Source of the DNA: Octopus vulgaris
Taxonomy: Eukaryota
Reading direction: 5' to 3'
Assembly: GCA_951406725.2 (NCBI GenBank)
Contig: OX597842.1
Coordinates: 1,550,001 to 1,614,000 of the forward strand
Length of the DNA stretch: 64,000 bases
Shown here: one piece after another, positions 8,971 to 64,000 of the stretch
How the letters are laid out: every line of letters starts with the position of its first letter
How positions within the stretch are numbered: the first letter of the stretch is position 1
Notes under the pieces: generated by a model
Databases searched by the model: none
What the model saw: only the letters and a program-made list of their open reading frames with translations
Told to the model about the DNA's origin: nothing
Position numbers and translations under genes: made by a program

Positions 8971-9659
8971 TCCCCACCCTCCTCAGTAACCTGCCCTTAC
9001 CCACCCCAGATACTTATTAATTTGTATTTATAAAACAATCTCAGGGACAAGTTGGCAGGAGGCAGCACTGTGTTGGGGCGGTAGGGGGGCGACTGCACCC
9101 TTCTTTCTATTGCTGAACAATTTAGAAGGGAGCAGCATAAAGCAAGCCCTCAGCTCCCATTTCTCTTTTCTTTGCCTCCCATTGCAACTTCAACCCCGCT
9201 CCCACCACGCCCATCACACAAAGCCATCCCCCTTCTTAAATGATAGAGTAGATGTCAGAAGGGAGGTGGGGACACGCTTGTGCGTGTATGTGGGGTGTTA
9301 AGGGGTAGTTTCTTAAATGTCCATCCCCCTCCACCACTCTTCCCACCTGTCGCTATGTTGTCCCTTCCTCCCCCTACCCCCTCCCCGCGGGCAGACAGCG
9401 GTGGAGGGTGGCAGGGGTTGGAAAGTCAGAATGTGATTAAGATTTGAGTTTAAGGATCAGGGATCAGTCAGATTAAAGGGGTCAGTTTGGAAAGCAAAGA
9501 GAATGACTTTATAGGTATTTAGGGAGTGTATATGACTGTTTGAATGTGTGCATGTGATTTGTTTGTATGTATGTAGTTGCATATACTACCAGATATGTTT
9601 AAGATGTATGGATATTTGTATACAGTATTTGTTGGAATATTTGGCTGTATGTCAATACA

Positions 9660-9710
9660 GACAGACAAATAGATAGATAGAGAGATAGAGATAGATAGAC
9701 AGATAGATAG

Positions 9711-9741
<31 letters not shown>

Positions 9742-10136
9742 GATAGATAGACAGAGATAGGTAGATAGATAGATAGATAGATAGATAGAGATAGATAGAC
9801 AGAGATAGGTAGATAGATAGATAGAGAGATAGATAGATAGAGATAGATAGACAGATAGATATAGATAGATATAGATAGATAGATAGATAGATAGATAAAG
9901 AGATAGATAGACAGATAGATAGATAGATATAGATAGATAGATAGATAGATATAGATAGATAGATATACATAGATAGATAGATATAGATAGATAGAGAGAG
10001 AGATAGATAGATAGATAGATAGATAAAGAGATATAGATAGATAGATAGATATACATCGATAGATAGATAGATAGATAGATAGATATACATCGATAGATAG
10101 ATAGATAGATAGATAGATATACATCGATAGATAGAT

Positions 10137-10215
<79 letters not shown>

Positions 10216-10500
10216 CATAGATAGATATAGATAGATAGAGAGAGAGAGATAGATAGAGAGACAGAGAGATAGATAGATAGATAGATAGATAGAGATAGAT
10301 AAAGATAGATAGATAGATAGAGATAGATAGAGATAGATAGAGATAGACAGAGATAGATAGAGATAGATAGATAGATAGATAGTTAGGTAGGTAGCGATAG
10401 AGATGTAGAGATAGAGAGAGAGAGAGTGAGAGATGGATAGATAGATGGATACATAGATAGACAGACAGAGATTAATAGCTAGAAAGATGGAAGAATAGAT
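9660..10500. repeat. (GATA)n/(GA)n microsatellite
   Basis: Direct read. Confidence 0.95.
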
Positions 10501-10538
10501 AGATAAACAGACAGACCATTGAACAGAAAAACAAATAC

Positions 10539-10910
10539 TTTATTTACATTATTTACATATTGACAGAGTTTGTCCTCATTTTGTTTGTTGTTAACACGTT
10601 TCGGCTGATATACCTTCTACCCTTCATCAGATGTCTTGGGGAAATTTCAAACTTGGGTTCTCATTCCTAAGCTATTTTTCGATGTTGTTGTTATTATTAT
10701 TCTTCTTCTTATTATTATTATTATTATTCAGGTCACTGCCTGGAATCAAACTCGGAATCTTGGGGTTAGTAAGCCCACGCTCTTAACCACTACACCATAT
10801 GCCCATGGATGGTATATCAGCCGAAACGTTGTGTTAACAACAAACAAAAAGGACAAAATCTATCAAAATGTAAATAATGTAGATAATTCCTAATCTCTTA
10901 AATATAGAAC
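10539..10910 (-). mobile_element. SINE family E (tRNA head + (AAT)n + hammerhead-bearing tail), with an inverted tail fragment at 10811-10910
   Basis: Minus-strand head gggcatatggtgtagtggttaagagc...gagtttgattcc (A/B boxes); tail gacat-ctgatga...cagcc-gaaacgt; the same tail recurs on the plus strand. Confidence 0.8.
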
Positions 10911-11518
10911 AGAAAAAACAGACAGGTCTTGTGAATAAAACAGAATAACGAAGCACAATGCGTGGGAATACGTTGTCATTATTCATCACACCAAAGCCTG
11001 GAACTCTTGGTTTTTGGGTCACTATCTAACTTCTGCTGATTAATAAAGGTAAAAAAAAAAGACAGGTAGATAAGTAGATAAACATCTGCATTAAGGTTCA
11101 TTTTATGTTGTTAAGGTACATGGCTTGCAATCGTGTTACTCTCTTTTCTCTTTTACTCTTTTACTTGTTTCAGTCATTTGACTGTGGCCATGCTGGAGCA
11201 CTGCCTTTAGTCGAGCAAATCGACCCCAGGACTTATTCTTTGTAAGCCAAGTACTTATTCTATTCGTCTCTTTTCTCTTTTACTTGTTTCAGTCATTTGA
11301 CTGTGGCCATGCTGGAGCACTGCCTTTAGTCAATCAAATCGGCCCCAGGACTTATTCTTTGTAAGCCTAGTACTTATTTTATCGGTCTCTTTTTTGCCAA
11401 ACCGCTAAGTTACGGGGACGTAAACACACCAGCATCGGTTGTCAAGCAATGTTGGGGGGACAAACACAGACAAACACGCACACACATGCCTATCTATCTA
11501 TATATATATATATATATA

Positions 11519-11733
11519 CTTTATTTAAAGCAGCAGAAAATTCAACAAAATCTGTTACTCTGAGTTTCTCGTTGCCGTTCATCAGACAGTTTTGTCTGAT
11601 GAACGGCAACGAGAAACTCAGAGTAACAGATTTTGTTGAATTTTCTGCTGCTTTAAATAAAGCATATTACTCTACCACTGGTATTTGAGTACTCTTTTTT
11701 CCACCTTGTTTCACATTTATGTGTTTACTCCGG

Positions 11734-11980: not shown

Positions 11981-13077
11981 ATTGAATACAACTTAGACCA
12001 AAAGCAAATTTGCACAATTTTCTTATTCCAGTTCAAGCTAGGCTGAAAAGCTGCTGAAACAGCTCACGATATCAACGATGCGTGTGGCCCAGGAACCACT
12101 AATGAACGTACAGTACAATGGTGGTTGAAGAAATTTCGAAGCGGTGACGAGAGTCTTGAATCTGAAAAGCTTAGTGGTTGGCCATCAGATGTTGACAACG
12201 ATAAACTTAGAGCCTTAGTGAAAGCCAATCCAAGCACAACTGTTTGAGAGCTTGCGTCAGAATTCAACATAACGTATACAATAATTTCCAACCACTTGGA
12301 AGAGATTGGGAAAACAAAAATACCTGAGAAATGGGTGCCACACGAATTGAATGGCAATGAAAAAAAACAGTTTTGAAGTGTCATCTTCCCTTCTTTTACA
12401 CAACAAGAACGACCCGTTTCTTGACCGGATTGTGACTTGCGATGAAACATGGATTCTTTATGACAACCGGTGATGCTCAGCTCAGTGGTTGGACGCCGAC
12501 GAAGCTCCACAAGACTTCCCAAAGCCAAAGTTACCCCAAAAGAAGGTCGTAGTGACTGTTTGGTGGTCTGCAGCTGGTCTCATCCATCACAGCCTTTTGG
12601 ATCCAGGTGAAACCATTACGGCGGAGAAGTACCGTCGGCAAGGGGATGAAATGCAGAAGAAACTCCGACAACAGCCAGCATTGGTCAATAGAAAAGGACC
12701 AATTTTTCTCCACGACAAAGCTCGGCTGCACGTCACGCAGCTGACCCTGCAGAAGTTGAACACATTGGGCTACGAAACTCTGCCTCATCCGCCATACTCA
12801 CCAGTCCTCCCGCCTACCACTTTTTCAAGCATCTTGACAACTTCCTGTGTGAGAAATGCTTCAAAAACCAAGACGGTGCTAAACACGCCTTCAATGACTT
12901 CATTGCCACCAGAACACAGGATTTTTACATTACTAGCATAAATAAACTTGCTTAGCATTGGCAAAAGTGTGTTGATTCTGATGGTGTTTATTTCGATTAA
13001 TAAAGTTTTGTTTAAGCCAAGATATGTGCATCTGTATTTAAAGGTTAAAAACTGCAAGAACTTTCTTGACAACCTAA
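11981..13077 (+). pseudogene. Decayed mariner transposon (Hsmar1/cecropia-like transposase) with 3' ITR
   Basis: Translates to ERTVQWW.KKFRSGDESLE, KWVPHEL, RIVTCDETWILYDNR, LHD.AR.H, LPHPPYSP, YHFFKHLDNFL, WQKCVDSDG.YFD* with stops and frameshifts; ends aaaaactgcaagaactttcttgacaacctaa-TA; no 5' ITR seen. Confidence 0.93.
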
Positions 13078-27242: not shown

Positions 27243-27265
27243 TGTATAAAGAATATAAGTATATA

Positions 27266-27305
<40 letters not shown>

Positions 27306-27348
27306 CATACTTAAATATAACAGTGTATGTACACCACCATATGTATAT

Positions 27349-28065
27349 AAAAAGGAATACAAAAAATGGGACAAGAACACAAAACATCCAGACATTTATT
27401 GTGTTGAATCAACCAAATATGAACCATTTTGTTGCACAATGCATCTCCATCTTTCCTTTAGCTTGAAAATACCCTCTTCCCAGAATTCAGGTGGTTTCAT
27501 GGCAAAGAATTCATCAAGGTATCATTTTACGTCATCCAAGGAATTGAAATTTTTACCATTAAGACTATTCTGCAGAGACCTGAATAAGTGGAAATCCAAA
27601 GGAGCAATATCTGGTGAATATGGAGGGTGGGGAAACACATCCCAGCCAAGCTGCAGCAATTTTTGTCTGGTTCCCAAAGCATCAAGTACCGAAAATGAAC
27701 TTTCTTATCTTGAATTTTAAAGGGTTACAGAATTAACACAGGTTATAGGAACATAAACCTTCTTCCACGAAAAGATAGCTTAAACTGTGCTCTAAATGGC
27801 GGTGTAGTCAAATCCTAATTTTTAGACTCAACCATGCTCTAAAATGAGTTGAAAGGTAAGCTACTATAAATCAGCATGAACTTTCTGGACAATCCAATAG
27901 ATGATACAAAAAAGAGACAAGAAAAATTGCCAAAATTTCAAAGATAATCTGGAACTCAAATGAGGAGAGAAAACTCCGAATGACCCATCCTTGTTTTTTC
28001 TTGTCCCTTTTTAGTATCATCTGTCTGGATGTTTTGCGTTCTTGACCCCTTTTGTGTAATTCCTT
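27349..28065 (+). mobile_element. Hairpin insert in (TA)n, split by a mariner
   Basis: Left arm (27349-27395 + 27900-27926) is the reverse complement of about 27995-28065. Confidence 0.6.
27400..27897 (-). pseudogene. Internally deleted mariner (mellifera-like)
   Basis: Reverse translation TRQKLLQLGWDVFPHPPYSPDIAPLDFHLFRSLQNSL...GIFKLKERW; N-terminal DKKVHFR; 5' ITR TA|ttggattgtccagaaagttc. Confidence 0.88.
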
Positions 28066-32174: not shown

Positions 32175-32800
32175 CATTTATACATTACTAGCAGTATCGC
32201 CCGGCGTTGCTCGGGTTTGTAAGGGAAATAACTATATAAGCATTTTTAGAGATGTAAAGTATAAAAGCCATCTCAATATGGCTAACCACAAAGGGGGGGT
32301 GTTACTGTAGGTTTTACGTTCTGAGATTTAATAATATATTTTTAGAGAGTTACTTCCCTTATATAATAGCAAAAAAATGCATTAAAAATGGAAAAAAATG
32401 ATGGTAAATTTTTTTTTAAATCGTAGACTCATCGTAGACGCGCGCTAATACCCAGAAGGGCTCGATATGAATCACGACTATAAGATACCCGCTTTTGGTT
32501 ACACTGCACCGCAAAATGTGGGAGTAGTTAGGAATCTAAATCGTAGGGGACAGACACACAACTTCTCTTTTATATATAAAGATTTACAATGGGCAGATTG
32601 TTGTCCTCTCTCCAGCCTTCGTCAGGTTTTCTGGTGGAATTTTGAACCCAACCTTTTATTTGACTAATGGGGTACATTGTTCTCATTCCTTAAGTACGTT
32701 GCTGTTGTTATATACGGGCATATAACATAGTGGATAAGGGCGCGGATTACTAACCCTTGGATTCTATGTTCAATCCCAGGCAGGGACTTGAAAAATAATA
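32175..32800. mobile_element. Diverged SINE family E locus (minus-strand tail + plus-strand head), split by a Helitron
   Basis: ccagccttcgtcagg (= cCTGACGAaggctgg) at 32612; head gggcatataacatagtggataagggcgcgg at 32716. Confidence 0.65.
32188..32582 (-). mobile_element. Non-autonomous Helitron
   Basis: Reverse TC...hairpin...CTAG, inserted at A|T; same family as 36573-36969. Confidence 0.88.
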
Positions 32801-33679
32801 CAGAGATTATCATTCTCAAAAAAATTTCCAAAAATTTTTCTACTTACGGTTGGGGTTTTAGGGTTACGGAAAAAAGTGAAAAATGAAGTAAGGGTACGCA
32901 AAAATTTCAAAAATCCCAATTTTTGGCAATTTTCGGGAATCTCTGTATCTGAAAAGGTGGGTTTTTGGCAAAAAAAATTTTTTTAATGATAATTTACGAA
33001 AAAATGGGGGTGGGGCTGTGCAGAAGGAAGTCTTTCTGGGAGATTTCGCTGTGATTTCTAACACATCTCATGACCCACTCCTCGAAGGGTGAGGTAAAAA
33101 AAAAAAATTTTCCAAAATTTTATTTCAGAAAAAATTTCTCCTTTTATACGGAGCAAATGATTTTAGCTCAATAGAGGCCATTGATTGGTTAAAATTGGAA
33201 AAATTAAACTACGTTAAACTTACAAATTACAATTGTAGGCCTTGATGAAAAGAAAATTCGAAAAACCTCCGTCAAAACAGAGAAAATCCAACTTATGTGG
33301 GCGTCCTGAACCGAAACCCCAACGTTTCTTTCAAGAAGGGCGCCCATCCCTGATTTAGGTGGGGGGCTGTTGTGGATCTTGGAAGAAATAAATGGATAAA
33401 ATGTGATGTCTGGAAAACAATAAAAATGTTTGTAACTTTTAAAACTTCTCCAAGCCCCATGGTGAGGAAAATACGTTGATACAATCTGTCGTTAGGAAAG
33501 AGAAGCAGACGTTTAAAAAACGTGGATTTAAAAGAATATGAAAAAATTGACGAAGTCTGTCTTCATCCACCCCGAAGTGCTTTGAAGAATGGGTAATTAT
33601 AGAATGTGGAAAAGTTTTGGGCAAAAAAATGGCTGAGAAATTCCGATTTATGAGTGGCAGATATTCCGAATTATTAATA

Positions 33680-35830: not shown

Positions 35831-35990
35831 TGTGTGTGTATGTCCGTATGACTGTGCTCCTGCATGTGTGAACGTGTGTGTATGTGTTCATATGTGTGTG
35901 TGTCCGTGTATATAGGTGTATCCGTATGAATATGTCTGTGGGTGTGACCCCTTTCTGTGACGGAACGAGATATCTTCGATAAAATCTTTG

Positions 35991-36256
35991 GTATTAGCGC
36001 GCGTCTACGATAAGTCTACGATTTTAAAAATAATTTACCATCATTTTTTTCCATTTTAATGCATTTTTTCGCTATTATATAAGGGAAGTAACTCTCTAAA
36101 AATGTCTACGATGAGTCAACGATTTAAAAAGAAATATACCATCATTTTTTTCCATTTTTAATGCATTTTTTTGCTATTTTTTGGCTATAACTCTCTAAAA
36201 ATGTTTATATAGTTATTTCCCTTACAAACCCGAGCAACGCCGGGCGATACTGCTAG
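35991..36256 (+). mobile_element. 5'-truncated Helitron flanked by an 18-bp direct repeat
   Basis: Ends cccgagcaacgccgggcgatactgCTAG; tcttcg(a/g)taaaatctttg on both sides. Confidence 0.85.
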
Positions 36257-36572
36257 TCTTCGGTAAAATCTTTGCTCAAAACAAGTCACAGTTTTGAGCA
36301 ACGAAAATTTCGTCACAAATAAAATGTCGTCCATTTTTACGTTCCGTGTTCAAATTCTGCCCAAGTCGACTATGCATTTCATCCTTTCAAGGCCAATAAA
36401 ACAGCTACCAATCGAGGCCTAATTTTCTACAGGACGTTTCTAAAATCACAGCGATCCAAAAACTTTATTTCAATAAAAACATTTCACAATTATAAGTGAT
36501 ACACATTACGAACAAGAAGCAGAAAATGAGGGGGAAATAGACTTAATTTGAACCGAGTTTCCCCTGGGCACA

Positions 36573-36969
36573 TCTATATATATAAAAGTGAAGTTGTGTG
36601 TCTGTCTCCTACGATTTAGATTCCTCACTACTCCCACATTTTGCGGTGCAGTGTAACCAAAACCGGGTATCTTATAGTCGTGATTCATATCGAGCCCTTC
36701 TGGGTATTAGCGCGCGTCTACGATGAGTCTACGATTTTAAAAATAATTTACCATCATTTGTTTCCATTTTAATGCATTTTTTCGCTATTATATAAGGGAA
36801 GTAACTCTCTAAAAATGTCTACGATGAGTCAACGATTTAAAAAGAAATATACCATAATTTTTTTCCATTTTTAATGCATTTTTTTGCTACTTTTTGGCTA
36901 TAACTCTCTAAAAATGCTTATATAGTTATTTCCCTTACAAACCCGAGCAACGCCGGGCGATACTGCTAG
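36573..36969 (+). mobile_element. Non-autonomous Helitron, complete
   Basis: a|TCtatatatataaaagtg ... hairpin ... CTAG|t. Confidence 0.9.
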
Positions 36970-37209
36970 TATATATATATATATATAAAAGAAAAACACC
37001 TTTCCGAAGAAATTATTTTTAAAATATGCCCTTTTGAAGGTCAGGTACGAAACCGCATCAGTCCTTTTTCTTTACACATATTTTAAGATGACATTTTGCA
37101 GAATTATGCTTCTGAAAAATCAGAGAAGTTTGAAAAGAATATTAAACGAAATGCTGAAATTATAAAAATTAGTGGTAACAATGTCTGGACCCAAAAAAAA
37201 ATCAATAGA

Positions 37210-37418: not shown

Positions 37419-37470
<52 letters not shown>

Positions 37471-37705
37471 CGAGACAAAACCACTATTTTAAAACCAAAC
37501 AAGGAAAGACTTAATCAATACATAAAATTTTAATATAAAATTATTTAATTTATATTAAAATTTTATGTATTGATTAAGTCTTTCCTTGTTTGGTTTTAAA
37601 ATAGTGGTTTTGTCTCGAATTATATTATATAATATTTTACTATAAAATTGGATTTAACCCTAAATCTGATTTTTCCCTGTAATTTTGGATTCATTCCCTA
37701 ATATT

Positions 37706-37760
<55 letters not shown>

Positions 37761-39194: not shown

Positions 39195-39860
39195 TTACCT
39201 CCGCCATTTGTACATGCCCCGGTGACCCATCTTTGAAATTTTGGGAATGATTTACCGTATGGTGAATGTAACCGATTATGTGGAGATTACAATAGCTTGC
39301 AAAACAGTAGTTCCTGGAAGAACGTTTTGTCTGAAAACATTCTCCAACGTCTCTGTACTCCTATCGGGTACACGTTGAAGAAATCCTTTTCTGGTTTTGG
39401 TGTCATAAGACCCGACAACCCAAGTTTTACGACACATTCTTCCTACATTGTTCTTGCTATTGAAGAACAAGCTTCCATCGATCTCCACTGTACGATCGGG
39501 ACCACCAATGGGAAATTTGTACTGCAGCAGTTTTGCCGAACAAACATCTCTACAGAACTGGTACCCCTGAACGGCAGTTTTTATATCAATGCAGTTCATA
39601 CTTGCAGATATCGTCACAGGCAATTCGAAAATCAAATCAAACACTAAATGAAAAATTACATATAATGGCAGCTTAGAGTTTTCTGTAAATGTACTTTTCC
39701 TGGTGGAAAGATTTTTTTATTTACATTTAGCACACTTTCTATTGACAAACCCGTCAATAGAACGATTAGAATTTTGAAAAATCATCGAATGTGTGCAAGC
39801 ACACGTTTTTTTTTCATTGGTAATATGTTTTGTCTTCTGATAATCTATAATGTTCTCCGG
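39195..39860 (-). pseudogene. Merlin/IS1595 (ISXO2-like) DDE transposase remnant
   Basis: CAC...KCAKC, STRKSTFTENSKLPL, IGGPDRTVEIDGSLF, GRMCRKTWVVG, VPDRSTETL..VLPGTTV, then TVNHSQNFKD after a frameshift. Confidence 0.88.
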
Positions 39861-40498
39861 TGCAAGGTACAGTTCCAATCTGGATGTACACAATGTAAAA
39901 TAAATTAAGAAAAAATAGTAACAGCTGCTTCTTTTTAAAGGGTACAAATATTGTGAAGAAAATGATGATGAGTGTTGCTGATGGGATGGTTCATATATCT
40001 ACACAAAGATGCACGTAAATAAACATAGACGAAGTCTCCATTTTGGAAGTATGTTAAAATTTTTAGTAGACGTATGGACGGAGAATTATTCAATATCGTA
40101 TTTGCTTCTGTGAGAATCGCTCACCTTTAAAGCGAAAAAACAAGACAGACGTATACAACACTTGTTTCAGCCGTTCATTTTCTCTGAGCTGCAGAGAGTG
40201 TTGCGCTCGCGCACCCTTTATTGCTGAGTAGAGAGGGTATGTGTGGGTCAGTATTGGAGTTTTTGTGGGTGCATATGTCCCTTATGCATTCCAAAACCGA
40301 GTCGTCGATTTTCACGTATGGGGTATCAAAAGATTCAGTACTATTTCCACTACTAAATAAACTTTATTTTCATTGACAAATTTGAATTACAAAAATTTTA
40401 AATTATAATCTTTTCCATAAGTTATCTATCGTAAGCATTTTATATGACGACCATGATGACGTCACATTTTCTATACGAGTGTGTACCTTAAAAGATAA

Positions 40499-41222
40499 CC
40501 TATTTCTTTACTAGCCACAAGGGGCTAAACACAGAGGGGACAAACTAGGACAGACAAAGTGATTAAGTCGATTACATCGACTCCAGTGCGTAAATGGTAC
40601 TTAATTTATCGACCCCGAAAGGATTAAAAGGCAAAGTCGACCTCGGCGGAATTTGAACTCACAACGTAACGGCAGACGAAATACAGCTACGCATTTCGCC
40701 CGCCATGCTAACGTTTCTGCCAGCTCGCCGCCTTTAAAAGACAAGCTATTTCTTTATTACCCACAAGGGGCTAAACACAGAGGGGACAAACAAGGACAGA
40801 CATAGGTATTAAGTCGATTACATCGACCCCAGTGCGTAACTGGTACTTAATTTATCGACCCCGAAAGGATTAAAGGCAAAGTCGACCTCGGCGGAATTTG
40901 AACTCACAACGTAACGGCAGACGAAATACAGCTACGCATTTCGCCCGCCATGCTAACGTTTCTGCCAGCTCGCCGCCTTTAAAAGACAAGCTATTTCTTT
41001 ATTACCCACAAGGGCTAAACACAGAGGGGACAAACAAGGACAGACATAGGTATTAAGTCGATTACATCGACCCCAGTGCGTAACTGGTACTTAATTTATC
41101 GACCCCGAAAGGATTAAAGGCAAAGTCGACCTCGGCGGAATTTGAACTCGGAACGTAACGGCAGACGAAATACAGCTACGCATTTCGTCCGGCGTGCTAA
41201 CGTTTCTGCCAACTCGCCGCCT
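40499..41222 (-). mobile_element. Tandem trimer of full-length SINE B (~245-bp period)
   Basis: Three near-identical units separated by tttaaaagacaag. Confidence 0.92.
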
Positions 41223-41440
41223 TAACTGTTGCAATACCACTCTTTATGAAGGAGTTCTCTGTTTCCATGGTAAAAATAATACTGCCATTACATTTTTACA
41301 TGAAACACGGTGTTCTGTCATTTACCCACACGTGTCCAACATGTAATTTTTCATGTATTTTCCGCGAGGAAACGAACATGTGGCGTTGCCGTAGGATGGT
41401 ACGGTGACGTCGAAAATCCAGAAGGGAGTGTGAATATTAT

Positions 41441-45023: not shown

Positions 45024-45049
<26 letters not shown>

Positions 45050-45057
<8 letters not shown>

Positions 45058-45369
45058 TATTAAATTAGAGATAAAACCACTATTAGGCAAATCATACAAT
45101 GAAAAACTTAAGCCAATACATAAGATTATTTAATTTATATTATTTAAATATATAACAAAATTATTTAAAAAATATTATTTAATAATTTTGTTATATATTT
45201 AAATAATATAATATAAATTAAATAATCTTATGTATTGGCTTAAGTTTTTCATTGTATGATTTGCCTAATAGTGGTTTTATCTCTAATTTAATATAATATT
45301 TTACTATAAAATTGGATTCAATCCTAAATCTGATTTTTCCCTGTAAGTTTGGATTTATTCCCTAATATT

Positions 45370-45375
<6 letters not shown>
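45050..45375 (+). mobile_element. Hairpin-plus-tail insert in (TA)n
   Basis: Long inverted arms centred near 45170; tail shared with 37464. Confidence 0.75.
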
Positions 45376-45414
<39 letters not shown>

Positions 45415-45417
<3 letters not shown>

Positions 45418-45790
45418 TACAAATTGAGATAGGGGTTGTGAGTGCAACCCACCATGGGATAACATATATCCAATATACTGCCAGTAAAGTACCCAACAAA
45501 GTTAATACATCACACCTGGCTAATATGAGCATAATGAGCTACCCATATCTGCATGGCTGAAACAGCTGTAAGATGTAGTTTATATTTATATTTATATTTA
45601 TTTATATTCACTTATATATATTGTACTTATTGTATCATATCACTCATTGATGTGCACTGTTTTGTTCTATACTTTTATGTTTGACCTTGATGTTCATATG
45701 TAGTGGGTTAATAAATTATGTGATTCGGTATTATCTGGTAGTTGATTATTGATTAAGGTGTATTTCTCCATTTTCTTATTTTGTATTATA
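45415..45790 (+). mobile_element. PLE-like pLTR fragment; 3' part related to 54665-54855
   Basis: gaaacagctgta palindromic hammerhead half at 45559; shared tail tgattcggtattatctg...tttctccatttt. Confidence 0.5.
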
Positions 45791-57560: not shown

Positions 57561-57609
<49 letters not shown>

Positions 57610-57616
<7 letters not shown>

Positions 57617-57845
57617 GACAAAACCACTATTTTGCAAAACAAACAAGGAAAGACTTAATCAATACATAAAATTTTAATAAATTGACTATTTATTAAAATT
57701 TTATGTATTGATTAAGTCTTTCCTTGTTTGTTTTGCAAAATAGTGGTTTTGTCTCTAATAATATTTTATAATATTTTACTATAAAATTGGATTTAATCCT
57801 AAATCTGATTTTTTTCCCTGTAAATTTGGATTTATTCCCTAATAT

Positions 57846-57860
<15 letters not shown>
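57610..57860 (+). mobile_element. Hairpin-plus-tail insert in (TA)n
   Basis: Perfect arms centred near 57685; same family as 37464. Confidence 0.78.
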
Positions 57861-57893
<33 letters not shown>

Positions 57894-59536: not shown

Positions 59537-60660
59537 AGCATGTGGCTTAGAGGTTAGGGTCCTCGGCTCCCAATCATTAGGTTGTAAGTTCAATTCCCAG
59601 CAATGCTGTACCCTTGAGCAAGACCCTAAAAAATGTGTTGTACCTGTAATTCAAAGAGGCCAACCTTGTCACATCCTGTGTTATGCTGAAACTCCCCGAG
59701 GACTACGCTAAGGGTTACTCAGGTCTGTGGAATACTCAGCCACTTGCCTTGCATGTTAATTTCACAAACAAGCTGTTTGATTGATCGGATCATCTGGACC
59801 CTCTGCATCGTAACAAACGGAATGCTACCTGTGTCCTTGGGCAAGACACTTTACTTCACATTGCTCAGTCCAGTTAAGGGTACACATGTCTGTGGAGCGC
59901 TCAGCCACTTTCACATTAATTTCATAAGCAGGCTCTTCTATTGATTGGCTCAACTCCAGCCCTTGTCATCATAACCAACAGAATACCAGTGACATTGGGC
60001 AAGACACTTTACATCACGTTGCTCAAGTCTACTCAGCTGGCAAAAATGAGTTTTGACCCGTAATTCAAAATGGCCAACCTTTTCATATTCTGTGTCCCAC
60101 TGAATCACCTTGAGAACCACATTAAGGGTACGTATGTCTGTGGAGCGCTCAGCCACTTTCACATTAATTTCACGAACAGGCTGTTCCATTGATTGAATCA
60201 ACTGAAACACTTGTCATACCTAACAGATACCCAGGGTAGCTGTAAACCTTATAGTACCCCTTACTATAGCCCTATACCTCTGCAAACCCACAGTAGTCAT
60301 CTTCTATGGCTTTGTAAACCTTGCATGTTAATTTCAGGCTGTTGAATTGATCAGATCATCTGGAACCCTCTGCATCGTAACAAACGGAATGCTACCAATG
60401 TCCTTGGGCAAGACACTTTACTCCACATTACTCCAATCCATTCAGCAGGCAAAAATGAGATTGGACCCCTTAATTCAAAAGGGCCGACCTTTTCACTTTC
60501 TATGTCACGCTGAATCACCCTTAGAACCATGTAAGGTACGTATGTCTGTGGAGCGCTCAGCCACTTTCACATTAATTTCACAAGCAGGCTGTTCCATTGA
60601 TTGAATCAACTGAAACACTTGTCATAAGCGATACCCAGGGCGGCTGTAACCCTTATAGTA
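59537..60660 (+). mobile_element. Further tRNA-headed SINE family, locally amplified (about 4 partial bodies)
   Basis: Head gtggcttagaggttaggg...aagttcaattccc; repeated ttgggcaagacacttta and tgtggagcgctcagccacttt. Confidence 0.65.
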
Positions 60661-61638
60661 CCTATTCCTTTACTACCCACAAGGGGCTAAACGCAGAGAG
60701 GACAAACAAGGACAGATGGATTAAGTCATTTATATCGACTCCAGTGTGTAACTGGGACTTAATTTATCGACTCCGAAAGGATGAAAGGCAACGTCGACCT
60801 TGGCGGAATTTGAACTCAGAACATTACGGCAGATGAAATACCTATTTCTTTACTACCCACAAGGGGCTAAACACAGAAGGGACAAACAGATTAAGTCGTT
60901 TATATTAACTCCAGTGCGTAACTGGTTCTTAATTTATCGACCCCGAAAGGATGAAAGGCAAAATCGACCTTGACGGAATTTGAACTCAGAACATAAAGAC
61001 AGACGAAATACCTATTTCTTTACTGCCCACAAGAGGCTAAACACAGAGAGGACAAACTAGGACAGATAAATGGATTAAGTTGTTTATATCGACTCCAGTG
61101 CGTAACTGGTACTTAATTTATCGACCCCGAAAGGATGAATGGCAAAGTCGACCCATGCAGAATTTGAACACAGAACGTAACGGCAGACAAAATACCTATT
61201 TCTTTACTATCCACAAGGAGCTAAACACAGAGGGGACAAACAAGGACAGACAAAGGGATTAAGTCGTTTATATCGACTCCAGTGCATAACTGGTACTTAT
61301 CTAATCGACCCCGAAAAGATGAAAGGCAAAGTCGACCTCAGCAGAATTTGAACTCAGAACATAAAGACAGACGAAATACCTATTTCTTTACTACCCACAA
61401 GGGTAGACAAAGAGGACAAACAAGTACAGACAAGAGGACAGAGAGGACAAACAAGTACAGACAAATGGATTAAGTCGTTTATATCGACTCCAGTGCATAA
61501 CTGGTACTTAATTTATCGACCCCGAAAGGATGAAGGGCAAAGTCGACCCCGGCGGAATTTGAACACAGAACGCAATGGCAGACGAAATACGGCTACGCAT
61601 TTCGCCCGACGTGCCAACGCTTCTACCAGCTCGCCGCC
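60661..61638 (-). mobile_element. SINE B pentamer (one head + five ~180-bp bodies)
   Basis: Units start at 60661, 60841, 61011, 61195, 61379; flanks taacccttatagta/taaaccttatagca. Confidence 0.9.
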
Positions 61639-63450: not shown

Positions 63451-63632
63451 TACAGTTCTGTATTTAAGAGATGAGGAATTATTTACATTATTTACATTTG
63501 ATGGATATTTGTCCTCATCTTGTTTGTTGTTAACACAATGTTTTGGCTGATATACCCTCCAGCCTTCTTCAGGTGCCTTGGGGAAATTTTGAACCTGGGT
63601 TCTCATTCCTAAGGTATTTTTCCATGTTATTA

Positions 63633-63698
<66 letters not shown>

Positions 63699-63935
63699 GT
63701 GTTCAGGTCACTGCTAGGAATTGAACTCTGAATCTTGGGGTTAGTAGCCCGTACTCTTAACCACTATGCCACAGGCATATGGTGTAGTGGTTAAGAGCAC
63801 AGGCTACTAACCCCAAGATTCCGAGTTCAATTCTAAGCAGTGACCTGAACAATAATAATAATAATAATAATAATAATAGCATTGAAAAATACCTTAGGAA
63901 CGAAAACCCGGGTTTGAAATTTCCCCAAGACACCT
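63451..63935 (-). mobile_element. SINE family E, complete (63451-63771), head-to-head with a 3'-truncated inverted copy (63774-63935)
   Basis: Reverse hammerhead at 63532-63577: ggcac-CTGAAGA-a-ggctg(gagggtatat)cagcc-aaaacatt-gtgtt; forward head ggcatatggtgtagtggttaagagc. Confidence 0.85.
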
Positions 63936-64000
63936 AATAGACAGTGATAATGTTTCTGTCTTCTTTCTTGTTACCTCTCTCTTCCCCCCTCTCTCTCTCT

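What the first reader, a model, noticed from the sequence alone, without database searches (positions are those of the whole stretch)
10539..10910. Second family E locus with the Penelope integration geometry
Seen: a minus-strand element lacking its last ~25 nt abuts a plus-strand tail fragment (10811-10910). That fragment starts within hammerhead stem II and retains the terminal attcctaatctcttaaatatagaac. The flanks share gaacagaaaaa(a)ca, a possible TSD. An inverted copy without tail plus a direct copy with tail is the arrangement described for Penelope insertions, and is not typical of LINE-driven SINEs (inference).
Basis: partly seen in the sequence, partly recalled or inferred. Interest (0 to 1): 0.72.

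Follow-up and report, generated by a model that had tools for sequence, protein, structure and literature searches.

The report
Penelope-type tRNA SINE in octopus
A short, old octopus jumping-DNA copy pairs a tRNA-like start with an end that looks borrowed from a Penelope retrotransposon, and it sits in Penelope's head-to-head pattern, suggesting a small parasite copied by Penelope enzymes rather than by the usual LINE enzymes.

Summary
The minus arm is 10540-10807. The plus arm starts at 10806, not 10811. The tail is 24 nt (10887-10910), and the target duplication overlaps the element's last 4 nt.

All 3 family E loci in the window are head-to-head inverted pairs (one newly found, 32.6-32.8 kb), against 0 of 65 copies of four control repeats. 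The element is a tRNA-like head, (AAT)n, a minimal hammerhead of Penelope (PLE) type and a stem-loop with tail.

Translating its 3' module retrieved spurious ORFs from other copies; the best is from Octopus bimaculoides. Their 3' ends fall into two classes, with or without the tail, and the tail-less end matches this locus. In a sister family, an antisense copy lies upstream in 41 of 110 ORFs and downstream in 1 of 89. In five ORFs the module runs in frame into one conserved coding region that resembles a PLE N-terminus (recalled; library tests negative).

Best reading: a SINE mobilised in trans by a PLE, primed from both target strands. No empty site, reverse transcriptase partner or transcript was shown. 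I found no published tRNA-headed PLE passenger.

The parts
10521..10533 (+). Left copy of the target-site duplication
   Evidence: 11 nt exact, then a 1-nt gap and CA; null P about 0.001-0.003
10534..10539 (.). Six unmatched nucleotides between the left TSD copy and the inverted arm (filler or degenerate TSD end)
   Evidence: Sequence
10540..10807 (-). Inverted arm: full-length family E copy without the 24-nt tail
   Evidence: Alignments; its end falls in codon 49 of the module, where 6 of 18 informative E-type ORF alignments end
10729..10807 (-). tRNA-like head; A box 10787-10797, B box 10742-10753
   Evidence: ARAGORN of 4 E heads (the 63.7-kb one, not this one) at 80% threshold; 1 of 400 shuffles
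10685..10728 (-). (AAT/AAG/AAC)n microsatellite between head and body
   Evidence: Sequence; length differs between copies
10592..10635 (-). Minimal type I hammerhead of the inverted arm, damaged (2 nt lost from stem II, 3 nt near the cut site); CUGAUGA at 10624-10630
   Evidence: this copy does not fold as a hammerhead
10803..10808 (.). Head-to-head junction: palindrome CCATGG with a 2-nt overlap of the arms
10806..10910 (+). Direct arm, 5'-truncated in hammerhead stem II. Stem II 3' arm 10818-10822, GAAACGTT 10823-10830 (predicted cut after 10830), helix I 3' strand 10831-10835
10887..10910 (+). 24-nt tail, present only on the direct arm; begins near the base of the 3' strand of a predicted stem
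   Evidence: the 63.5-kb copy folds a 9-bp stem there (z -2.1, 5 of 200 shuffles)
10907..10920 (+). Right copy of the target-site duplication; first 4 nt shared with the element end
63455..63772 (-). Second locus, direct arm with tail, 5' end short by several nt; helix I (5 bp) and helix II (6 bp) fold as in minimal hammerheads
63770..63938 (+). Second locus, inverted arm ending at the hammerhead core; weak degenerate TSD (P 0.02-0.06)
32584..32710 (-). Third locus (new, more diverged): 5'-truncated direct arm, interrupted near its 3' end by another repeat
   Evidence: nhmmer E 1.4e-4
32714..32801 (+). Third locus: inverted head, 3 nt from the direct arm
   Evidence: nhmmer E 3e-14

Best explanation
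The locus is one old insertion of a non-autonomous element made of a tRNA-derived Pol III head joined through (AAT)n to the terminal module (pseudo-LTR) of a Penelope-like element: minimal hammerhead, start of the PLE coding region, stem-loop and tail. Shown from sequence: the anatomy, the head-to-head geometry, the two alternative 3' ends and the target duplication. Inferred: Pol III makes the RNA. A PLE RT/GIY-YIG protein binds the 3' module in trans and nicks both strands of an A-rich target about 14 nt apart. Each 3' end primes a cDNA, one at the distal start (tail kept) and one 24 nt upstream (no tail). The tail-less cDNA ran to the RNA's 5' end; the other stopped in hammerhead stem II. 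The two were joined head-to-head through the 2-nt overlap. The shared 81 nt mean this stretch was copied twice, from two RNAs or from one in turn. The ribozyme did not make the junction: the direct arm starts 25 nt upstream of the predicted cut.
For: Geometry at 3 of 3 loci against 0 of 65 control copies. TSD around both arms. The hammerhead has the traits listed for metazoan PLE minimal hammerheads in PMC4209133: extra base after CUGANGA, G-C first pair of helix II, 5-bp helix I, palindromic ACGU in place of helix III. Two 3' ends: of 18 informative E-type ORF alignments, 6 end at residue 49 (one is a frame-shifted tail), 8 at 56-57, none at 50-55 and 4 earlier; of 188 sister-family alignments, 36 end at 30-33, 137 at 40-42 and 13 between. 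Antisense copy upstream in 41 of 110 against downstream in 1 of 89 longer ORFs. Six sister-family ORFs run from an antisense head-like peptide directly into the sense module at or shortly before the hammerhead, as here. Five ORFs continue in frame past the tail into one conserved region, four for about 90 residues or more; PLE pLTRs and tails are reported to overlap the ORF start. In vitro, an anole PLE nicks and extends both strands, starts at two sites whose interval is the tail, and uses uncleaved RNA (PMC11167929).
Against: No RT or GIY-YIG domain is linked to the module: 0 of 116 hits has one. The continuation found no long relative, no Pfam family at its curated cut-off, no PDB match and no fold match from a poor model (pLDDT 52), so its PLE identity rests on a recalled motif. 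The continuation was seen only in the sister family. The two arms differ from each other (72 matches, 6 substitutions, 2 gaps) as much as from the 63.5-kb copy (72/7/3 and 74/6/3), so identity does not prove one event. Rfam finds neither tRNA nor hammerhead over family E. ARAGORN at default finds nothing. Every window copy has a damaged hammerhead. Absence of T4 runs is not significant (P about 0.6). The tail is 24 nt, not 30-40. The 4-nt overlap of element end and target sits uneasily with priming without homology as reported for the anole PLE. Only 2 of 30 E-type ORFs showed an upstream antisense copy, though most start at an internal ATG and show little upstream sequence.
Confidence: 0.72

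Rival explanations
1. Same PLE machinery, different route: one full-length cDNA folds back at the head and primes its own second strand, giving a near-perfect palindrome. One arm later loses its head and body by template jump or central deletion, and the tail-less end comes from endonuclease resolution.
For: Palindromes at inverted PLE junctions were read as self-priming in PMC3846280, and the tail as endonuclease resolution in PMC8557442. All three junctions have short palindromes or hairpins. The O. bimaculoides model XP_052825882.1 begins with a palindromic head-head stretch that jumps to stem II.
Against: The tail-less end recurs at one position on direct copies too, which fits an initiation site. 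The two-start-site result in vitro explains both ends without later deletion.
Confidence: 0.12
2. Two separate insertions: a second family E copy homed into or next to the head of an earlier one.
For: Arm-to-arm divergence equals between-locus divergence. PLEs are said to insert into or beside earlier copies (PMC6765202). Tandem units occur in the sister family.
Against: One duplication brackets both arms. Orientation is head-to-head at 3 of 3 loci and upstream in 41 of 110 against downstream in 1 of 89 ORFs. No second TSD was seen by eye at the junction.
Confidence: 0.06
3. The element is a PLE-derived non-autonomous unit, but the head is only a passenger: the RNA is made by Pol II from the pLTR or by read-through, so it is a retrozyme-like PLE fragment rather than a SINE.
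For: The tRNA signal is weak. A/B boxes alone are not proof of a SINE (PMC3531059). PLEs mobilise unrelated flanking sequence in trans (PMC3846280).
Against: Full-length arms start at nearly the same point, about 10 nt before an A box. A and B boxes keep tRNA spacing in 3 of 4 heads under a pattern I wrote from these heads; it hit one other window site and 0 in 20 shuffled windows.
Confidence: 0.07
4. LINE twin priming, or a later repair or replication event, inverted part of an ordinary LINE-driven SINE.
For: 5' inversion by twin priming is common for L1 (30.9%, PMC2912911).
Against: It is nearly absent for SINEs (1 of 5,554 Alu; 0 of 65 control copies). Twin priming on one RNA gives largely non-overlapping arms (established knowledge), whereas these share 81 nt here and about 160 nt at 63.5 kb. 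Family E ends in a fixed sequence, not a simple-repeat tail.
Confidence: 0.03

Closest known systems
Endonuclease-positive Penelope-like elements (Penelope/Poseidon, Neptune): pLTR with minimal hammerhead, inverted 5' copy, optional tail
   Same: Head-to-head inverted copy, tailed and tail-less ends, TSD, minimal hammerhead about 105 nt from the end, module overlapping an open frame.
   Different: No RT-endonuclease ORF; tRNA-like head in front; tail of 24 nt rather than 30-40; total length about 290 nt.
tRNA-derived SINEs (SINEBase definition; octopus OK, OR1, OR2)
   Same: Short, non-coding, A/B-box head, 3' end apparently taken from the partner retrotransposon.
   Different: The partner looks like a PLE, not a LINE; no simple-repeat tail; inversions are the rule. 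Sequences of OK/OR1/OR2 (Ohshima and Okada 1994) were not seen, so identity with one of them is unchecked.
Schistosome Sm-alpha / Sj-alpha SINE-like hammerhead repeats
   Same: Pol III promoter followed by a hammerhead (review PMC6765202, passages).
   Different: Described there as tandem, self-cleaving repeats; the passages read name no PLE partner, two-ended tail or inverted geometry. Primary papers not seen.
Non-LTR retrozymes and other non-autonomous PLE derivatives (Chlamydomonas MRC1, solo pLTRs)
   Same: Non-coding, pLTR-related, proposed or shown to use PLE enzymes.
   Different: Retrozymes are defined by tandem units each with a hammerhead and circular RNA; no tRNA head is described in the parts read. 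Family E here is dispersed, inverted and tRNA-headed.

Membership tests
Penelope-like element (autonomous) | Single ORF with telomerase-like RT and GIY-YIG endonuclease | tested here: not met
   The element is about 290 nt; no such ORF at the loci; none among 116 hits
PLE-mobilised sequence | Inverted 5' copy, head-to-head | tested here: met
   3 of 3 loci; 41 of 110 against 1 of 89 in related ORFs, mostly the sister family
PLE-mobilised sequence | Optional 3' tail (two 3' ends), published length 30-40 nt | tested here: met
   Two end classes; the length is 24 nt, below the published range
PLE-mobilised sequence | Minimal type I hammerhead in the terminal repeat | tested here: met
   Core motifs and helices read across copies; no single copy is intact; no Rfam hit
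PLE-mobilised sequence | 3' module homologous to the pLTR and ORF start of an autonomous PLE | tested here: inconclusive
   E module is homologous to the sister module (52% over 42 aa), which continues into a conserved region in 5 ORFs. PLE identity is recalled; some searches were negative
PLE-mobilised sequence | TSD around the whole unit, confirmed by an empty site | tested here: inconclusive
   TSD significant at this locus, weak at 63.5 kb, none seen at 32.7 kb; no empty site available
tRNA-derived SINE (SINEBase) | At least 60% identity to a tRNA over at least 60 nt | tested here: inconclusive
   No tRNA set was on hand for the identity test; relaxed ARAGORN called 1 of 4 heads (null 1 of 400); A/B boxes in 3 of 4
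tRNA-derived SINE (SINEBase) | [quoted passage not shown] | tested here: inconclusive
   3 loci in 64 kb and 30 E-type ORFs elsewhere imply a high copy number; no genome count was possible
tRNA-derived SINE (SINEBase) | Transcription by Pol III | not testable with these tools
   Needs transcript or ChIP data
tRNA-derived SINE (SINEBase) | Reverse transcription by a partner LINE | tested here: inconclusive
   Geometry and 3' module point to a PLE instead; no LINE library was available to exclude a match
Non-LTR retrozyme | Tandem units, each with a complete hammerhead | tested here: not met
   No tandem E units in the window; tandem units occur in the sister family

The most novel reading that the evidence does not exclude
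Octopus genomes carry at least two related families of true Pol III SINEs whose partner is a Penelope-like element rather than a LINE. This would be an undescribed SINE-enzyme partnership, born when a PLE end landed in the (AAT)n tail of a tRNA-derived sequence. Their many short copies would record both-strand, two-start-site PLE integration in vivo and define a cis signal of about 110 nt sufficient for mobilisation in trans.
Probability: 0.5. Interest if true: 0.82.

Novelty: new variant of a known kind. Interest (0 to 1): 0.7.

Why it matters
SINEs are defined as depending on LINE reverse transcriptase. A tRNA-headed element carried by a PLE would extend that rule to the retroelement class closest to telomerase. 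PLE integration is still described as unresolved, and the two-start-site model rests on one in vitro system. A short, abundant passenger lets that model be tested from genome data alone, by tabulating both ends, junctions and TSDs, and it offers a minimal RNA substrate for in vitro work. It also suggests that some octopus repeats filed as SINE or unknown are PLE dependants. The single locus has no evident function.

Tried and rejected
Rfam at E-value threshold over the whole window and over two loci: no tRNA or hammerhead match on family E (for the 29 weakest rows were not shown). ARAGORN default: 0 genes. A simple hammerhead regex found no intact family E core. T4 avoidance is not significant. 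Arm-to-arm identity does not separate one event from two. Search for longer proteins with the single module: 0 of 4 candidates. Search for full-length PLE proteins with the continuation: 0 of 82 candidates. Pfam, PDB and viral fold searches gave nothing for the continuation; the model was poor. No Atlas result was obtained. Plasmid and GTDB scans for stray DNA copies: no match. Three long hits (P0018, P0047, P0048) were dropped as unrelated repeat proteins before the counts. RT or integrase domains in a few hits (for example P0146, P0222) follow the tail end without the conserved continuation; I read them as insertion targets, not partners. The 59538-59605 hit was rejected as another SINE's head. 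Ribozyme cleavage as the cause of the junction was rejected because the arm starts 25 nt upstream of the cut site. Metagenome and viral contig collections were not searched.

Full report
Observation. The sequence shows a minus-strand copy of a short repeat at 10540-10807 joined head-to-head to a plus-strand fragment at 10806-10910. The minus arm lacks the last 24 nt, 10887-10910 on the plus arm. The flanks share 11 nt exactly plus CA after a 1-nt gap (10521-10533 and 10907-10920). That was matched by 0.2% of 19,926 random pairs, 8 and 10 of 8,922 sliding 30-mers, and 11 of 5,000 shuffles. The right copy's first 4 nt are the element's last 4, and 6 unmatched nt lie inside the left copy.

Anatomy. 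Read on its own strand the element has a head of about 78 nt with A and B boxes, an (AAT)n tract, a body of about 50 nt, a hammerhead-like motif and about 80 nt more. The head is only weakly tRNA-like to tools. ARAGORN finds nothing at default. At 80% threshold it of 4 E heads, against 1 of 400 shuffles; two SINE A heads are called at the same level. An A+B pattern I wrote from these heads hits 3 of 4 of them, one other window site and nothing in 20 shuffled windows. The hammerhead, read across copies, has CUGANGA, one extra base, a helix II opening with G-C, GAAA, palindromic ACGU in place of helix III and a 5-bp helix I. These are the traits given for minimal hammerheads of metazoan PLEs (PMC4209133, parts 1-2 of 4 read). 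The 63.5-kb copy folds helix I and helix II as its minimum-energy structure, though not better than shuffles (96 of 200), and its 3' part folds a 9-bp stem (5 of 200 shuffles) whose 3' strand begins close to the tail-less end. No copy is intact, and Rfam reports no hammerhead or tRNA on family E.

Frequency in the window. A profile from four arms found a third locus not used to build it: a minus-strand body at about 32584-32710, 3 nt from a plus-strand head at 32714-32801. So 3 of 3 family E loci are head-to-head pairs. A seventh hit at 59.5 kb is another SINE's head. Four control families gave no opposite-strand pair within 30 bp among 35, 18, 5 and 7 copies. Fisher's test for 3 of 3 against 0 of 30 gave P = 1.8e-4, and 3 of 4 gave 6.7e-4 (run before the formal count). 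Two of the three loci prompted the hypothesis, so only one is a blind test. The loci differ: at 63.5 kb the inverted arm stops at the hammerhead core and the TSD is weak (P 0.02-0.06); at 32.7 kb another repeat interrupts the 3' end and I saw no TSD.

Evidence from other copies. No eukaryotic DNA collection was available, and scans of plasmids and GTDB found nothing. The 3' module of the 63.5-kb copy is an open frame, so I used it to retrieve mis-called ORFs from other copies. There were 116 hits. The best, 84% identical, is O. bimaculoides UniRef A0A0L8FV75. Another is O. bimaculoides XP_052825882.1. Of 30 hits looked up, those two name a species, one was a dropped unrelated protein, and the rest are unnamed ENA or Logan records. 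After dropping three unrelated long proteins, 30 were E-type and 83 belonged to a sister family. An alignment of 28 sequences found 200 longer proteins, of which 120 were listed and 118 were new.

Two 3' ends. Counting only alignments followed by at least 5 further residues, 6 of 18 E-type hits end at residue 49, 8 at 56-57, none at 50-55 and 4 earlier. One of the six is a frame-shifted tail. The inverted arm at this locus ends inside codon 49. In the sister family 36 of 188 end at positions 30-33, 137 at 40-42 and 13 in between; a few of the early ends are frame-shifted tails. In one search no control segment reached the tail score (0 of 30).

Inversion and tandem structure elsewhere. Among the 118 longer ORFs an antisense copy lay upstream of the module in 41 of 110 testable cases and downstream in 1 of 89. 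The antisense references included four peptides taken from earlier hits, and these ORFs are mostly sister-family. In the first set, 17 of 113 showed an upstream antisense match at shuffle P below 0.02, two of them E-type (only those with at least 8 upstream residues were tested). Six ORFs run from an antisense head-like peptide directly into the sense module at or shortly before the hammerhead (P0030, P0078, P0101, P0166, P0236, P0237), the same junction type as this locus. Tandem units starting at helix I also occur.

Link to a PLE. In five sister-family ORFs the module continues in frame past the tail into one conserved region, four of them for about 90 residues or more. From memory it resembles the N-terminus of Penelope/Poseidon proteins; that label comes from no call. 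Published PLE pLTRs include the first codons of the ORF, and the tail extends them (PMC3846280, passages; PMC11167929). All library tests of the region were negative, and a model with long helices had pLDDT 52. The E module is homologous to the sister module (52% over 42 residues), but no E-type ORF showed the continuation. The GenBank supplement of PMC11167929 could not be read and its two PDFs were not opened; they may allow a direct comparison.

Mechanism. The anole PLE protein nicks and extends both target strands, starts reverse transcription at two internal sites whose interval is the tail, prefers AT-rich targets and does not need ribozyme cleavage (PMC11167929, parts 1-2 of 4 read). 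This locus fits that directly: one target end primed at the distal start, the other 24 nt upstream, and the two cDNAs met head-to-head at a 2-nt overlap inside CCATGG. The 81 nt shared by the arms were copied twice. The direct arm starts 25 nt upstream of the predicted cut, so self-cleavage did not define it. These steps are inferred. Fold-back self-priming with later deletion is the main rival and uses the same enzyme. Two independent insertions cannot be excluded by identity, since the arms differ from each other as much as from the 63.5-kb copy, but one TSD brackets both. LINE twin priming is unlikely: 1 of 5,554 Alu insertions was inverted (PMC2912911, passages).

Known relatives and novelty. 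Non-autonomous PLE derivatives are known: MRC1 (PMC8557442, passages), solo pLTRs and captured genes, and retrozymes (PMC7229834, passages; bioRxiv 10.64898/2026.07.22.740005, parts 1-3 of 5, supplements closed). Pol III repeats with hammerheads are known in schistosomes (review PMC6765202, passages). Ten searches listed no paper whose title or abstract opening describes a tRNA-headed SINE mobilised by a PLE, or this octopus family. Passages of PMC4758252, PMC6962438, PMC8967140, PMC8969392, PMC2377424 and PMC3531059 did not either. PMC5785218 was not available, and Ohshima and Okada 1994, Repbase and Dfam were not seen, so prior description is not excluded.

Verdict. The feature is real and the Penelope reading is supported. 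It works like a PLE-mobilised passenger with a SINE-like head. It is not an autonomous PLE, and membership as a SINE is likely but unproven. Confidence in the full mechanism 0.72, and about 0.9 that PLE enzymes are involved by some route; interest 0.7.

Noticed in passing
XP_052825882.1 (P0022): The O. bimaculoides 'dystrobrevin beta isoform X1' model begins with about 32 residues of family E sequence (palindromic head-head, then stem II onward): exonisation or a mis-annotation.
   Followed up: partly
Sister family in ENA ORFs (e.g. P0008, P0120, P0121, P0237): A related, apparently more abundant repeat with the same hammerhead-to-tail module, tandem units of about 43 codons, frequent 5' inversions and a head-like antisense peptide; host species not named.
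   Followed up: partly
window 32176-32583; related 35989-36258, 36572-36982: An AT-flanked repeat (family D) is inserted in the 3' end of the third family E locus; about 10 nt of E seem to continue on its far side.
   Followed up: partly
window 9650-10515: The insertion sits at the edge of a long (GATA)n array; PLEs are reported to favour microsatellites, but 13,900 of 64,000 nt of the window are simple repeats, so this may be chance.
   Followed up: no
window 40498-41225 and 60662-61380: Head-to-tail tandem arrays of repeat family B (three full and four partial units).
   Followed up: no
window 59629-60662: Tandemly duplicated units of about 410 nt following a tRNA-like head at 59538-59605.
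   Followed up: no
window 11519-11662: Near-perfect inverted repeat of about 140 nt, MITE-like.
   Followed up: no
window 12474-12941 (+), 27259-27720 (+), 39276-39716 (-): Open frames that look by eye like mariner-type and other DDE transposase fragments (labels recalled, not tested).
   Followed up: no
window 37430-37758, 45024-45421, 57563-57890: A three-copy, internally palindromic repeat; one copy interrupts a SINE A copy.
   Followed up: no
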